Assembly (NCBI RefSeq): GCF_001945605.1 | Contig: NZ_MPKA01000044.1 | Location: forward strand, 30,001-62,000 | Reading direction: 5' to 3' | DNA: 32,000 nucleotides | Source: Dubosiella newyorkensis | GTDB taxonomy: Bacteria; Bacillota_I; Bacilli_A; Erysipelotrichales; Erysipelotrichaceae | Shown here: one piece after another, positions 9,495-12,798 of the stretch | How positions within the stretch are numbered: position 1 is the first letter of the stretch | Layout of the letters: each line of letters opens with the position of its first letter | Translations under genes and position numbers: made by a program | Notes under the pieces: generated by a model | Seen by the model: the letters and a program-made list of their open reading frames with translations, nothing else | The model's database searches: none | Told to the model about the DNA's origin: nothing

Positions 9495-9527
9495 AAGAAA
9501 AAAGGAAGCACATTACGTGGCTTCCTT
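9495..9527 (-). terminator. Rho-independent terminator after dnaN
   Basis: AAGGAAGC (9502..9509) pairs with GCTTCCTT (9520..9527), with a T run following on the minus strand. The hairpin overlaps the dnaN stop codon by 2 nt. Confidence 0.7.
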
Positions 9528-10647
9528 AATCAATGCTCCGTACCGGAACAACGATCATCAATGTCGAATCATCTTCTGGATCGCTGATCTTGATCGGCTT
9601 CAAAACTCCTGTAAAAGAGAGCTCGACTCTAGAAGAACCAAGTGCCTTCAGAGCATCGAGCATATACGATCCATTGCATGTCAAAGTCAGATCTTCGCCA
9701 CCATAGATCGAGCTCAACAATTCTTCTTTCGAATCGCCGATCTCGCTAGAGCGCGTCTTGATCTCTACGATCTTGGGCGTGCACTCTAATTTGATCAAAT
9801 GCACTTTGTCCGTCAAGATAAAATTCGTTCGATCGATAGCGTTCGAAAGTTCTCTAGCATCGATCTGCAGTGTAGAAATAAAGTGTTGCGGAATAATTCG
9901 TTCTACATCCGGAAACGTTCCATCCAGCAAGCGCGTTTGAAAGGTCGTCCCATCAAAAATAAACTGCGCCTTTTTTTGATCCACAAAGATCTGAATGTCT
10001 TCTTCCTCTTGATTGAGCGATTTTACGATCTCGTTGAGCGAACGATTGGAAATCGTGATATTGAATGTATTTTCTTGGGGCAAAGTGATCCTTTTGCGCG
10101 CAAGACGATATGTGTCTGTCGCTGAACAATAAAGGTTTTCTCCTTGCATATTAAAATTGATGCCATTCAAAACAGGACGGCTATCAGAATCCGCGCATGC
10201 AAATCCAGTTTGACGCACGATTTCTTTCAATTGTTTTTTTGAAAGGATGAATTCATTTTGAGGTTGATAAAAATCGATCGATGGATATTCGCTTCCTTCG
10301 ATCCCATTCAAATGGAACGTTCCATGATCGCCTTCGATACGGATCAACGTATCGTCAAACAATTCAAAAGAAACGATCTTGCATTCTAGCTTTCGAATGA
10401 TTTCTAATAGATATTTCGATTCGATGATGATCGATCCTGTAGATTCGATTTTTAATTGATTTTCTTCATTGGGTTCAATGATCGTTTTAATCGAGATCGT
10501 CGAATCGCTTCCCATCAAAATCAAATGATCCGCTTCTACTTGAATACAGATCCCAGATAAAGCGGGCAGCGGAGAATAGGGTGAGATCGCCCGAGCGACA
10601 ATGCTAAGTTGGTCATAAAAGTATTTTCGATCTATGCTGAAATTCAT
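9526..10647 (-). CDS. dnaN: DNA polymerase III beta sliding clamp
   Basis: The 373-aa protein starts MNFSIDRKYFYDQLSIVARAISP, a typical DnaN N-terminus. An AAGGAG SD precedes ATG 10647. The ORF-track extension to 10791 crosses the dnaA-dnaN intergenic origin segment. Confidence 0.95.
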   Translation of the reverse strand: MNFSIDRKYFYDQLSIVARAISPYSPLPALSGICIQVEADHLILMGSDSTISIKTIIEPNEENQLKIESTGSIIIESKYLLEIIRKLECKIVSFELFDDTLIRIEGDHGTFHLNGIEGSEYPSIDFYQPQNEFILSKKQLKEIVRQTGFACADSDSRPVLNGINFNMQGENLYCSATDTYRLARKRITLPQENTFNITISNRSLNEIVKSLNQEEEDIQIFVDQKKAQFIFDGTTFQTRLLDGTFPDVERIIPQHFISTLQIDARELSNAIDRTNFILTDKVHLIKLECTPKIVEIKTRSSEIGDSKEELLSSIYGGEDLTLTCNGSYMLDALKALGSSRVELSFTGVLKPIKISDPEDDSTLMIVVPVRSID

Positions 10648-10790
10648 GTAGACTCCTTTAATATATTTATTTTGTATATAGTAACAACAATAAGGGTGGG
10701 GATATTGGGGAAAACTCTTGAAAACCGAATATCTATGCGATTTTTTTACGATTTTAGCTGGGTATGGATTGGGGAAGCCTGGGGAAATCA
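10648..10790. other. oriC, dnaA-dnaN intergenic half (box cluster plus AT-rich candidate unwinding element)
   Basis: Four box-like 9-mers are present: TGGGGATAT 10697..10705, TGGGGAAAA 10706..10714, TGGGGAAGC 10770..10778 and TGGGGAAAT 10780..10788. The tandem pair abuts GGG and a 3-nt periodic tract (AACAACAATAAG, 10683..10694). An AT-rich stretch follows at about 10658..10683, next to the dnaN start. Confidence 0.7.
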
Positions 10791-12134
10791 CAAAAGCTTC
10801 TCTTTGATCTTATGGACGGCGATCTCGAAGGCTTGATCTTTTTGCATTAGATCTTTCGCCCGGTTATAGGAAGACTGGATCGTCTTATGATCGCGTTTTC
10901 CAAGCTTCTTGCCAATCGTCATATAAGGAAGGTGTAAAAGCTCTCTAGAAAGATAGACACAAATGTGTCGAGCGTTCATGATCGCTTTGAGTCTCGATTT
11001 TCCTTCCAGATCTGAAATGGATAAGCCATAAAATTGCGAGACGGAACGTTTGATCGTCTTCATCGTCAATTCGTTTTTTTGCTCGACGATCGGCTCTTTG
11101 CCTAAATGTTCAGTCGCGAATTTTAGATCGATCACGTCGGGATTGAATAAAGTCGACTGAAAGATCAGACGATTGAGCTTTCCTTCCAGATCGCGGACAT
11201 CCGAAGAATAGGACATCGCCAAATAATCGAGAACTTCATCGGTCACAAGATCTTCTCGTCCATCCAATTTCTTTTTCAAGATCGCTTTACTCGTTTCAAA
11301 GCCTGGTTTCGAGATATTGATCGCTAGGCCAGAAGTAAAGCGCGAAATAAGGCGGGATTGCAGATTGCTCAATTCTTTAGGATGGATATCCGAGGTAATG
11401 ATGATCTGCGAGCCTTTTTCGATCAACTTGTTGTAGACCGTGAAAAAGACCTCCTGGGAAGAGTTGTGCTGCAAATTTTGAATATCGTCGATCAAGAAAT
11501 AATCACAGTCGAGAAGCTGCTCTTTGACTTTATCGACTGTATTTCCATGAATATTCTTTGTCTTCATCGCTTCGATAAGGATCGAAACAAAGTCGCCGCT
11601 ATACATATAGATGACTTTCGCTTCCGGGCGTTCGGCATGAAGATAATTGCCGACCGCATGGAGAAGATGGGTCTTCCCTAATCCAGAATTTCCAAAAAGC
11701 ATCAATGGATTGAACATTGGATGGCTTCCTTGATTGCAGGAGGCAAAACAGGCGGCATACGCTTCTTTGTTGCTGCTGCCTTCGATAAAGTTTTCAAAGG
11801 TATAATTCGGATTGAATTTATTTTCCAGAAGTGTGTTGGTCCTTTGTTCGACGACGACTTCTGGCATCATTTGTTCCATTTCTTTTTGTTCGATCAAGAT
11901 CAATGAAACTGGGTTGCCCCATTCCTCGCTCAAAGTCGCTTCAAATAAGGCCAGCTGCCTTTCCATGATCGCTTTTGTGATCGAGGATCGATACGCGACA
12001 TAGGCGGAATCATTTTCTATCTTGAACAAGGTCGTTTTTTGGATCCATACTTGAAAATCTTGTTCATCGAAATATTGAGCTTCGTGGATCTTCTTTAAAA
12101 CGCTGTCCCAAAGCATTTCTAATGTTGTGGCCAT
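10788..12134 (-). CDS. dnaA: Chromosomal replication initiator protein DnaA
   Basis: The 448-aa protein has Walker A GNSGLGKTHLLHA, Walker B FLIDDIQ, sensor/arginine-finger regions IITSD and RLISRFTSGLAINI, and a C-terminal helix-turn-helix domain. An AAAGGAG SD lies 8 nt upstream of ATG 12134. Confidence 0.97.
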   Translation of the reverse strand: MATTLEMLWDSVLKKIHEAQYFDEQDFQVWIQKTTLFKIENDSAYVAYRSSITKAIMERQLALFEATLSEEWGNPVSLILIEQKEMEQMMPEVVVEQRTNTLLENKFNPNYTFENFIEGSSNKEAYAACFASCNQGSHPMFNPLMLFGNSGLGKTHLLHAVGNYLHAERPEAKVIYMYSGDFVSILIEAMKTKNIHGNTVDKVKEQLLDCDYFLIDDIQNLQHNSSQEVFFTVYNKLIEKGSQIIITSDIHPKELSNLQSRLISRFTSGLAINISKPGFETSKAILKKKLDGREDLVTDEVLDYLAMSYSSDVRDLEGKLNRLIFQSTLFNPDVIDLKFATEHLGKEPIVEQKNELTMKTIKRSVSQFYGLSISDLEGKSRLKAIMNARHICVYLSRELLHLPYMTIGKKLGKRDHKTIQSSYNRAKDLMQKDQAFEIAVHKIKEKLL

Positions 12135-12580
12135 CCTTCTGCTCCTTTCGCTCGTATTGCTAGGTTTTCATTATACACAAAACGAAAAGGGGATAAAAGA
12201 GTTTTTCCCCAAAGGAATGTGTTTTCCCCATATCTGGATTAGGGAGAGTCTTTTCCCCTTGGGGAAAATGGGGAAAAAGAAGGAAAATAATTGGGGAAAA
12301 CTCAAACATATCCCCAATTATTTTTAGAAAGATTTTCTTTTAGGTAAGGAATAATTGATGATTTCCCCACTTATCCCCAAAGGGGTGGATAGGGGAAAAG
12401 TTTTTGTGGTGAAAAAAGGGGAATTTTATTCAGTTTTCCCCCATTTTGTTGAAATGACCAAAATCAAGCATGATATAATTCCCAAAAGAATGGGGAAAAC
12501 TTTCGTCATTTATGCTTTTCTTTTTCCCCTATATTAATATATAGACGGAACTTGGGGAAAAATTTATTAGGAACACTTCA
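12135..12580. other. oriC, dnaA-upstream half (dense array of about 15 non-canonical DnaA-box-like 9-mers)
   Basis: Perfect TTTTCCCCA copies lie at 12203..12211 and 12222..12230. Perfect TGGGGAAAA copies lie at 12260..12268, 12269..12277, 12292..12300, 12491..12499 and 12553..12561. One-mismatch variants lie at 12188, 12251, 12308, 12361, 12371, 12391, 12434 and 12522. The region has no plausible coding sequence and sits between divergent dnaA and rpmH. Confidence 0.8.
12170..12196 (-). promoter_or_regulatory. Candidate dnaA promoter overlapped by a box (autoregulation geometry)
   Basis: The minus-strand -10 TATAAT lies at 12170..12175. The -35 region, 17 nt upstream, is TTTATC and overlaps the box TTATCCCCT (12188..12196). 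Confidence 0.45.
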
Positions 12581-12663: not shown

Positions 12664-12798
12664 ATGAAAAGAACATATCAGCCAAGTAAGATCAAACACA
12701 AAAGAGTTCATGGTTTCCGTGCACGTATGGCGACAGTTGGTGGGCGTAAAGTTCTAGCTCGCAGAAGAGCAAAAGGTAGAAAGGTATTATCCGCATAG
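12664..12798 (+). CDS. rpmH: 50S ribosomal protein L34
   Basis: This gene falls below the ORF-track size cutoff. The translation [44 protein letters not shown] (44 aa) is near-universal L34 sequence. It sits in the conserved position upstream of rnpA. Confidence 0.95.

What the first reader, a model, noticed from the sequence alone, without database searches (positions are those of the whole stretch)
10860..10960. DnaA domain IV has substitutions at base-contacting positions (T435K and H439S equivalents) that co-vary with the altered box
The C-terminal DNA-binding signature reads ...MNARHICVYLSRELLHLPYMTIGKKLGKRDHKTIQSSYNRA... E. coli has ...[41 protein letters not shown]... and B. subtilis has ...[15 protein letters not shown]... 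Counting back from the C-terminus, E. coli D433-H434-T435-T436-V437-L438-H439 aligns with D415-H416-K417-T418-I419-Q420-S421 here. K417 is the AAG codon at 10884..10886. The proline of the LPEIG/LPKIG segment (E. coli P423) is also displaced (HLPYMTIG). P423, D433, H434, T435 and H439 are the residues reported to make base-specific major-groove contacts in the E. coli domain IV-DNA co-crystal structure. T435 substitutions have been reported to abolish sequence-specific binding. A natural Thr-to-Lys change next to a box change from A:T to C:G at position 7 suggests a re-tuned recognition code, because lysine typically reads guanine. My alignment is by eye, and I do not recall the exact residue-to-base mapping.
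Basis: partly seen in the sequence, partly recalled or inferred. Interest (0 to 1): 0.65.

Follow-up and report, generated by a model that had tools for sequence, protein, structure and literature searches.

The report
Lysine-variant DnaA with matching altered origin boxes
This gut bacterium's replication initiator DnaA has a lysine where nearly all bacteria have a threonine that reads the origin DNA, and in seven relatives with that lysine the origin's DnaA-binding sites all carry the same one-base change, suggesting protein and binding site evolved together.

Summary
dnaA lies at 10788..12134 on the minus strand. HMMER alignment places K417 (AAG, 10884..10886) at E. coli T435, Q420 at L438, S421 at H439 and M405 at P423.

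The origin boxes are TTWTCCCCA. All 8 exact TTTTCCCCA copies in the 32 kb flank dnaA, against 0.39 expected. There is no exact TTATCCACA.

- **H439S and the shifted proline:** these do not track the box change. Other Erysipelotrichales share them and keep canonical CCACA boxes.
- **K at 435:** this does track it. Seven K-type loci (up to six NJ lineages; only the window's own T-to-K change is clearly independent) have C at box position 7 in 73 of 74 anchored sites.
- **T/S-type relatives in the same subfamily:** they mix A7 and C7 about equally.
- **Outgroups:** 90% A7.
- **Closest T-type relatives (82% and 75% identity):** their origins are already C7-rich, so lysine is not needed to use C7 boxes.

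The best reading is a promiscuous intermediate followed by a T-to-K change that locks in C7. This rests on comparative evidence only; a direct Lys-guanine contact is inferred. I found no prior description. It is a new variant of a known system and is readily testable.

The parts
10788..12134 (-). dnaA coding sequence (448 aa plus stop)
   Evidence: ORF. Pfam Bac_DnaA 7.8e-50 and Bac_DnaA_C 2.4e-18. PDB DnaA 8btg 4e-71. Foldseek best hits are DnaA structures.
10839..10889 (-). Recognition helix of domain IV (residues 416-432), equivalent to the E. coli helix starting at residue 434
   Evidence: DSSP helix 416-432 in the AF2 model, pLDDT above 90. Offset of 18 from the alignment. E. coli helix 434-451 inserts in the major groove and reads TnCACA (PMC5742627).
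10884..10886 (-). K417 codon AAG, at the E. coli T435 position
   Evidence: T-type relatives have ACC, ACG or ACA here, so Lys needs one or two base changes (ACG to AAG is a single C-to-A transversion).
10875..10877 (-). Q420 codon, at the E. coli L438 position (a DNA-contacting position that is normally hydrophobic)
   Evidence: Alignment. Position 438 contacts DNA (PMC5043019). A polar residue here marks the subfamily with mixed or C7 boxes.
10872..10874 (-). S421 codon, at the E. coli H439 position
   Evidence: Alignment. S at this position is common in Erysipelotrichales that have canonical boxes.
10920..10928 (-). P403-Y404-M405. M405 occupies the E. coli P423 position and the proline is shifted two residues towards the N-terminus.
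   Evidence: Ungapped alignment. The same arrangement occurs in relatives with canonical boxes.
10992..10994 (-). R381 codon, at the E. coli R399 position (minor-groove arginine), conserved
   Evidence: Invariant in the 52-sequence alignment A1. Offset of 18.
12188..12561 (.). Upstream DnaA-box cluster in the rpmH-dnaA intergenic region. About 18 sites on both strands lie within one mismatch of TTWTCCCCA, including 7 exact TTTTCCCCA and 1 exact TTATCCCCA.
10697..10714 (-). Two tandem C7 DnaA boxes (TTTTCCCCA at 10706-10714, ATATCCCCA at 10697-10705) next to the unwinding module in the dnaA-dnaN intergenic region
   Evidence: Relatives with canonical boxes carry TTTTCCACA-type boxes at the matching position in the module.
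10780..10788 (-). ATTTCCCCA box directly after the dnaA coding sequence, overlapping its stop codon by one base
10679..10696 (-). GC cluster (CCC, 10694-10696) followed by the repeated triplets TTATTGTTGTTACTA (10679-10693). These are candidate DnaA-trios on the complementary strand and are followed by AT-rich DNA up to the dnaN start.
   Evidence: Sequence. The module is conserved across relatives. The architecture matches the B. subtilis basal unwinding system described in PMC10721633. Unwinding itself was not tested.
9526..10647 (-). dnaN (beta clamp), starting at the ATG at 10645-10647 (MNFSIDRKYF...)
   Evidence: Relatives have a 372-376 aa dnaN with Pfam DNA_pol3_beta domains at the same place.
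12664..12798 (+). rpmH (ribosomal protein L34), divergent from dnaA and bounding the upstream box cluster
   Evidence: Sequence. A 44-aa Ribosomal_L34 gene sits at the same place in L002 and L207.

Best explanation
**What it is.** The window holds the chromosomal origin of an Erysipelotrichaceae bacterium. Its DnaA boxes have the canonical register and sequence except for position 7, giving TT[T/A]TCC-C-CA instead of TT[T/A]TCC-A-CA. Its DnaA carries Lys at the second residue of the recognition helix, the E. coli T435 position.

**Most likely history and mechanism.**
1. In one Erysipelotrichaceae subfamily, DnaA stopped discriminating between A:T and C:G at box position 7. A candidate cause is replacement of the hydrophobic residue at the L438 position by S, T, Q, K or A. 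That residue, together with T435, would normally pack against the thymine methyl of the A7:T7' pair. Origins in this subfamily then came to hold A7 and C7 boxes side by side.
2. In several lineages, including independently and recently the window's own, a T-to-K change (ACx to AAR) placed a lysine in the major groove at that base pair. The lysine would favour the guanine of C7:G7' and disfavour T7'. The remaining A7 boxes were lost, leaving C7-only origins.

**Shown:** the alignment, the box inventory, the three-tier correlation across loci, and the positional homology of the boxes.

**Inferred:** that T-type proteins bind both box types, that K417 contacts base pair 7, the role of residue 438, and the order of events.
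For: **Origin context.** Exact TTTTCCCCA is confined to the dnaA flanks and strongly enriched. The cumulative GC-skew minimum falls at about 10-11 kb.

**Alignment.** K417 aligns with T435 without gaps and lies in the first turn of the recognition helix.

**Three-tier pattern across loci** (TCCNCA-anchored sites in 800 bp upstream plus 250 bp downstream of dnaA):
- K-type, 7 loci: 99% C
- T/S-type with polar 438, 11 loci: 42% A and 47% C
- Other Erysipelotrichales with hydrophobic 438, 18 loci: 90% A
- Positions 1-6, 8 and 9 are unchanged in all three groups.

**Per-locus C7 fraction** (six of the seven K loci, L208 left out because its flanks are short): K loci range 0.90-1.00 and T/S-polar loci 0.15-0.78. 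Mann-Whitney gives p=2e-4 for that contrast and p=5e-10 for polar against hydrophobic.

**Independence of the window's Lys.** Its DnaA is 82% identical to the T-type P0002 but only 66% identical to the nearest other K-type. The NJ tree shows up to six K lineages.

**Same sites, one base changed.** The two boxes next to the GC cluster and triplet repeats in the dnaA-dnaN spacer are A7 in canonical relatives and C7 in K-types at the same positions.

**Tolerance in T-type lineages.** Strains of one T-type species (DnaA 98.5-99.8% identical) differ between A7 and C7 at orthologous boxes.

**Lead for residue 438.** Holdemanella L005 has the subfamily's helix-4 motif but Leu at 438, and its boxes are canonical (10:2).

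**Rarity of Lys.** None of about 78 DnaA loci sampled from GTDB genomes has K. None of 120 metagenome hits has K, although the search pattern allowed K, T or N.

**Literature.** T435 is a base-contacting residue (PMC2533591, PMC7561715). T435M is defective in box binding (PMC5742627). An E. coli allele that includes T435K lowers initiation (PMC11695965).
Against: - Lysine is not needed for a C7-rich origin. T-type L001 (4:14), L003 (1:7, short flank) and L129 (3:11) are already C7-dominated. The K-to-C7 link could therefore be a consequence rather than a cause.
- The statistics are not corrected for phylogeny. The deeper K lineages may represent fewer than six independent events, because the NJ tree is unbootstrapped.
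- Only seven K-type loci were obtainable.
- The polar-438 rule has an exception. L007 (S435, S438, A439) has canonical boxes (11:2).
- Only one Leu-438 member of the subfamily was sampled.
- I could not retrieve the residue-to-base contact map of 1J1V or 3PVV. T435 facing base pair 7 therefore rests on this covariation and on my memory of that paper.
- No binding data exist.
Confidence: 0.55

Rival explanations
1. **Passenger lysine.** Residues other than 417 set the specificity for, or tolerance of, C at position 7 in this subfamily. K417 would be a neutral or affinity-raising change, for example an electrostatic contact with the backbone. It would become tolerable only once the T7' methyl contact no longer mattered. 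On this view C7-only origins in K lineages reflect drift or shared history, not a Lys-guanine readout.
For: T-type L001, L003 and L129 already have C7-dominated origins. The K lineages might be fewer independent events than the NJ tree suggests. Ala at 438 accompanies K in 15 of 19 K-type proteins, so other residues change together with it.
Against: All seven K loci have a C7 fraction of at least 0.90, and none of 16 T/S-polar loci exceeds 0.78. The window's K arose recently inside a T/Q clade, and its origin is the purest in that clade. A neutral residue would be expected to occur sometimes with mixed origins.
Confidence: 0.27
2. **The first reader's full version.** K417, S421 (H439S) and the displaced proline together form a re-tuned recognition code that co-varies with the CCCCA box.
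For: All three substitutions are present and all sit at positions reported as base-contacting (PMC2533591).
Against: S at 439 and the shifted proline are general in Erysipelotrichales whose origins are canonical. Eighteen loci with S439 give A7 281 against C7 20. L006 (VPFVKIG...RDHSTIMSS) gives 23:1. In the wider sample, N and Y at 439 also go with canonical boxes.
Confidence: 0.08
3. **Not DnaA sites.** The CCCCA repeats are binding sites of some other origin-associated protein, or are compositional repeats. DnaA would bind elsewhere or with low specificity.
For: No binding experiment exists. In E. coli, T435 substitutions reduce specific binding (PMC5742627).
Against: The repeats share length, register and all eight other positions with canonical boxes. 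They occupy the same positions as canonical boxes in relatives, including the two boxes abutting the GC cluster and triplet repeats. They occur only around dnaA at the GC-skew switch. No canonical boxes are left for DnaA to use.
Confidence: 0.03

Closest known systems
E. coli / B. subtilis DnaA domain IV bound to the TTATCCACA DnaA box (PDB 1J1V; 8BTG)
   Same: Same four-domain protein (Pfam Bac_DnaA plus Bac_DnaA_C). Same helix-turn-helix. Conserved R399, D433, H434 and T436 equivalents (R381, D415, H416, T418). Same 9-bp box register, with positions 1-6, 8 and 9 unchanged. Same rpmH-dnaA-dnaN origin layout, and a B. subtilis-like module of two boxes, a GC cluster and triplet repeats.
   Different: Box position 7 is C instead of A. 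T435 is Lys, L438 is Gln, H439 is Ser, and the P423 position is Met.
Lineage-specific DnaA-box variants: Epsilonproteobacteria (T at position 5), Cyanobacteria TTTTCCACA, Mycobacterium TTGTCCACA, Thermotoga AAACCTACCACC
   Same: These are precedents for box variation accompanied by variation at helix-5 positions 435, 438 and 439 (PMC5043019). They also show species-specific motifs (PMC10225481).
   Different: None of the variants named in those papers changes position 7, which is part of the strict CACA core. Here there is also a graded series within one family (A7 only, then A7/C7 mixed, then C7 only) that tracks a single residue. The papers read here describe no such series for DnaA.
E. coli dnaA T435 mutants (T435M; T435K within the dnaA(Sx) allele; Sutton & Kaguni 1997 as cited in PMC11511705 and PMC5742627)
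   Same: The same residue, and for T435K the same substitution.
   Different: In E. coli the change damages box binding or initiation. Here it is the fixed wild-type state of an essential gene, alongside an origin whose boxes differ at one base.

Membership tests
DnaA chromosomal replication initiator | AAA+ ATPase domain III with Walker A | tested here: met
   Pfam Bac_DnaA 7.8e-50, residues 108-272. GLGKTHL motif. Foldseek best hits are DnaA domain III structures.
DnaA chromosomal replication initiator | C-terminal helix-turn-helix domain IV | tested here: met
   Pfam Bac_DnaA_C 2.4e-18 against a cut-off of 31.5 bits, scoring 66.3 bits. Matches to 1j1v and 3pvp domain IV. Confident helices at 404-410 and 416-432.
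DnaA chromosomal replication initiator | Conserved base-contact residues R399, P423, D433, H434, T435, H439 | tested here: not met
   R381, D415 and H416 are conserved. T435 is K, H439 is S and P423 is M. This is a departure in the specificity residues, not in fold or family.
DnaA chromosomal replication initiator | Gene at the origin: rpmH-dnaA-dnaN synteny, box clusters, GC-skew switch | tested here: met
   Same gene order in relatives.
Canonical DnaA box (TTWTNCACA) | A at position 7 within the strict CACA core | tested here: not met
   No exact TTATCCACA in the window. About 21 sites carry C at position 7. In 7 K-type loci, 73 of 74 anchored sites have C.
Canonical DnaA box (TTWTNCACA) | 9-bp register, TTWT 5' part, C6, C8, A9 | tested here: met
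   Position frequencies outside position 7 are the same in K-type, mixed and canonical groups.
Bacillus-type basal unwinding system (two DnaA boxes, GC cluster, DnaA-trios, AT-rich DNA) | Sequence architecture next to dnaN | tested here: met
   Window 10679-10714 reads TTTTCCCCA-ATATCCCCA-CCC-TTATTGTTGTTACTA followed by AT-rich DNA. It is conserved in relatives. The pattern follows PMC10721633.
Bacillus-type basal unwinding system (two DnaA boxes, GC cluster, DnaA-trios, AT-rich DNA) | DnaA-dependent unwinding and ssDNA trio binding | not testable with these tools
   Needs P1 or KMnO4 footprinting, or a structure.

The most novel reading that the evidence does not exclude
A subfamily of Erysipelotrichaceae preserves a step-by-step natural re-specification of the bacterial replication initiator. 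The ancestral state reads only A7. An intermediate with Thr at 435 and a polar residue at 438 accepts A7 or C7. Repeated T435K changes then produce initiators that read only C7. K-type DnaA and its origin would form a pair that is functionally orthogonal to canonical DnaA and oriC. This would give a single-residue, single-base recognition rule (Lys 435 reads G7') for a protein whose DNA code has been treated as nearly invariant.
Probability: 0.45. Interest if true: 0.75.

Novelty: new variant of a known kind. Interest (0 to 1): 0.65.

Why it matters
- **The rule it breaks.** DnaA-box recognition is one of the most conserved protein-DNA codes in bacteria. The CACA core and T435 are treated as near-invariant, and origin-prediction tools default to TTATCCACA.
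- **What is new.** Here a core base and the residue long linked to sequence specificity change together. An apparently promiscuous intermediate state survives in living relatives.
- **Why it is testable.** A handful of domain IV variants and two oligonucleotides would show how an essential initiator and its many dispersed binding sites can change specificity without a lethal intermediate.
- **Experimental material.** Cultivable K-type species exist, including Ileibacterium valens and Faecalibaculum.
- **Practical points.** Origin finders should accept TTWTCCCCA for this clade. K-type and canonical pairs might serve as orthogonal replication modules.

Tried and rejected
- **Papers that could not be read.** I tried to read the residue-to-base contact map in Fujikawa 2003 (PMC153737), Tsodikov & Biswas 2011 and Yoshida 2003. 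None is held. The reviews and the BUS paper give no per-base map.
- **Metagenome scan.** The pattern VARYTNGGNNNNMGNGAYCAYAMNACNATH was meant to catch K- and T-type subfamily members. It still yielded about a dozen T-type subfamily loci and showed 0 K among 120 hits.
- **Genome-collection scan.** These served as canonical controls but added only one close relative (L003, with 100 bp of upstream sequence).
- **H439S as the cause.** Rejected, because S, N and Y at 439 occur with canonical boxes.
- **Displaced proline as the cause.** Rejected for the same reason.
- **Q420 as the specific correlate.** Rejected, because K-types mostly have Ala there and T/Q loci have mixed boxes.
- **Sequencing error or pseudogene.** Rejected, because the gene is intact and K appears in independent assemblies.
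- **Literature searches.** Searches for a CCCCA-type DnaA box, or for any DnaA-box work in Erysipelotrichaceae, found nothing.
- **First NJ tree script.** It timed out and was rerun.
Full report
**1. The observation**

The window carries rnpA and rpmH on the plus strand. It carries dnaA (10788..12134), dnaN (9526..10647), a small S4-like gene and recF on the minus strand. Cumulative GC skew reaches its minimum at about 10-11 kb, so this is a chromosomal origin region.

DnaA is 448 aa. The codon at 10884..10886 is AAG on the coding strand.

An ungapped HMMER alignment to B. subtilis DnaA (8btg, E=4e-71) puts RDHKTIQSS under RDHTTVIHA. With a constant offset of 18:
- K417 = E. coli T435
- Q420 = L438
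- S421 = H439
- D415, H416 and T418 = D433, H434 and T436
- R381 = R399
- M405 = P423, with the window's proline two residues earlier

Pfam finds Bac_DnaA and Bac_DnaA_C above their cut-offs. An AlphaFold2 model (mean pLDDT 86.7, above 90 in domain IV) starts the recognition helix at residue 416. Its best structural matches are DnaA.

The literature I could read confirms R399, P423, D433, H434, T435 and H439 as the base-specific residues of the E. coli co-crystal (PMC2533591, PMC7561715). PMC5043019 adds position 438. T435M is defective in box binding (PMC5742627). An E. coli allele containing T435K lowers initiation (PMC11695965).

**2. The boxes**

Exact TTTTCCCCA occurs 8 times in 32 kb against 0.39 expected. 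No shuffle reaches 8. All eight copies lie in the rpmH-dnaA spacer (seven) or the dnaA-dnaN spacer (one). No exact TTATCCACA occurs in the window.

Allowing one mismatch, about 21 TTNTCCCCA sites cluster at 12188-12561 and 10697-10788. They are the dominant repeat family of the upstream spacer.

In the dnaA-dnaN spacer the sequence runs TTTTCCCCA, ATATCCCCA, CCC, TTATTGTTGTTACTA, then AT-rich DNA up to the dnaN start. This is the layout of two boxes, a GC cluster, triplet repeats and AT-rich DNA described for B. subtilis (PMC10721633).

**3. Relatives**

The nearest homologues are Erysipelotrichaceae, including Ileibacterium, Faecalibaculum, Faecalicoccus, Floccifex and Catenisphaera.

In the 120 best hits, Ser at the H439 position is the rule. 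The T435 position varies:
- **Lys:** the window species and about 19 other proteins
- **Thr:** most proteins, including the four closest relatives at 75-82% identity
- **Ser:** the Catenisphaera-like group

An NJ tree places the K-types in up to six lineages. The window's DnaA is 82% identical to T-type P0002 but only 66% identical to the nearest other K-type. Its Lys is therefore a recent, independent change. T-type relatives carry ACC, ACG or ACA at this codon, so Lys needs one or two base changes.

**4. Covariation test**

I fetched dnaA loci in three ways:
- by exact-protein look-up
- by a scan of GTDB genomes
- by a scan of metagenome contigs

In 800 bp upstream plus 250 bp downstream of dnaA, I counted 9-mers within one mismatch of TTWTCCNCA outside position 7. 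Counts are A7:C7.

K-type loci:

| Locus | A7:C7 |
|---|---|
| Window | 2:19 |
| L083, Ileibacterium valens | 0:20 |
| L084, Faecalibaculum | 0:20 |
| L207 | 0:16 |
| L208 | 0:13 |
| L210 | 0:24 |
| L211 | 1:14 |

T/S-type loci of the same subfamily (polar residue at 438):

| Locus | A7:C7 |
|---|---|
| L002 | 8:9 |
| L085 | 8:11 |
| L086 | 6:10 |
| L106 | 6:7 |
| L127 | 9:3 |
| L139 | 6:5 |
| L159 | 7:6 |
| L186 | 8:7 |
| L209 | 6:12 |
| L212 | 5:7 |

The window's nearest T-type relatives are more C7-rich: L001 is 4:14 and L003 is 1:7. Only 100 bp of L003's upstream flank were held, so it was excluded from the statistics.

Erysipelotrichales with a hydrophobic residue at 438, and the other bacteria sampled, are canonical. 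L006 is 23:1, L004 is 19:3 and L005 is 10:2. Pooled, 35 S/hydrophobic loci give 454:25 and 110 T/hydrophobic loci give 458:70.

Anchoring on TCCNCA gives N = C in 99% of K-type sites. In the mixed group N is 42% A and 47% C. In the canonical Erysipelotrichales group N is 90% A. All other box positions are unchanged.

Per-locus C7 fractions separate the classes. Six K loci were tested, because L208's flanks were too short for that script. They range 0.90-1.00. T/S-polar loci range 0.15-0.78, giving Mann-Whitney p=2e-4. Polar against hydrophobic gives p=5e-10. These tests are not corrected for phylogeny.

S, N and Y at the 439 position all occur with canonical boxes. The shifted proline is family-wide.

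**5. Positional homology**

The two boxes abutting the GC cluster and triplet repeats are TTTTCCACA-type in canonical relatives (L004, L006, L212). They are TTTTCCCCA-type in K-type loci at the same place. Some T-type loci have one of each (L002, L003).

Within one T-type species (DnaA 98.5-99.8% identical between assemblies), orthologous boxes differ between A7 and C7. So the CCCCA motifs are DnaA boxes with one base changed. T-type lineages appear to tolerate either base.

**6. Interpretation**

The S421 and proline parts do not. Lysine is not required for a C7-rich origin.

The data fit a two-step path through a promiscuous intermediate:
1. Loss of discrimination at base pair 7 in the subfamily. 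A candidate cause is loss of the hydrophobic 438 side chain. This is supported by the Leu-438 Holdemanella locus with canonical boxes. It is weakened by L007, which is polar at 438 yet canonical.
2. T435K, which correlates with complete loss of A7 boxes.

A Lys reading O6/N7 of G7' is chemically reasonable but is inferred. I could not obtain the 1J1V contact map. That T435 faces base pair 7 rests on the covariation itself and on my memory of that paper.

The main rival is that Lys is a tolerated passenger. Against that, no K-type locus has a mixed origin. In its favour, some T-type origins are already C7-dominated.

**7. Novelty**

Lys at this position was absent from about 78 DnaA loci sampled from GTDB. 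It was also absent from 120 metagenome hits whose search pattern allowed K, T or N.

Full-text searches found no paper pairing DnaA boxes with Erysipelotrichaceae or with TTTTCCCCA. Ori-Finder 2022 mentions TTATCCACA, TTTTCCACA and the Thermotoga 12-mer in its text but no CCCCA type.

Known lineage-specific variants change positions 3 or 5, or the whole motif (PMC5043019, PMC10225481). This is therefore a new variant of a well-known system. It has an unusually clear comparative signal and a cheap decisive experiment.

Noticed in passing
window 10679-10714 (minus strand); same module in L001-L004, L083, L085, L086, L212: The dnaA-dnaN spacer holds a conserved module of two tandem DnaA boxes, a short GC cluster, TTATTGTTGTTA-type triplet repeats and AT-rich DNA. 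This resembles the B. subtilis basal unwinding system. The triplet block is conserved even where the boxes differ at position 7.
   Followed up: partly
window 12170-12196 (minus strand): A TTATCCCCT box (12188-12196) lies just upstream of a TGTGTATAAT element (12170-12179). The same element is also present upstream of dnaA in L001, L106 and other relatives. It is a likely dnaA promoter -10, with a box placed where autoregulation would be expected. This element also produces a false 'A7' hit (TTATACACA) in the box counts.
   Followed up: no
loci L004-L082 (tally): The E. coli H439 position is not conserved across Bacillota. S (18 loci), N (18) and Y (16) are common there and all go with canonical CCACA boxes. 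[quoted passage not shown]
   Followed up: partly
L106, L124, L127, L150, L158 (upstream 450 bp): Assemblies of one T-type species (DnaA 98.5-99.8% identical) differ at orthologous boxes between A and C at position 7, for example TTTTTGCACA against TTTTTGCCCA and TTATCCCAA against ATATCCACA. This suggests ongoing neutral interconversion.
   Followed up: partly
proteins P0016-P0028, P0034, P0058, P0100-P0120 (alignment column of window residue 420): In 15 of 19 K-type DnaAs the L438-equivalent residue is Ala, which is rare among non-K relatives (seen only in P0010 and P0115). A small residue may make room for the lysine. The window is unusual in pairing K with Gln.
   Followed up: no
L007 (Longicatena sp. 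MAG): Its DnaA has S435, S438 and A439 (RDHSTISAS) but canonical boxes (11 A7 against 2 C7). This is an exception to the idea that a polar residue at 438 is enough to relax position 7.
   Followed up: no
L086 926-2182 and L212 859-2091: In two relatives a FemAB-family gene sits between rnpA and dnaA, shortening the upstream box region to about 300-400 bp. In L083 (Ileibacterium) the upstream neighbour is a MatE transporter gene instead of rpmH and rnpA.
   Followed up: no
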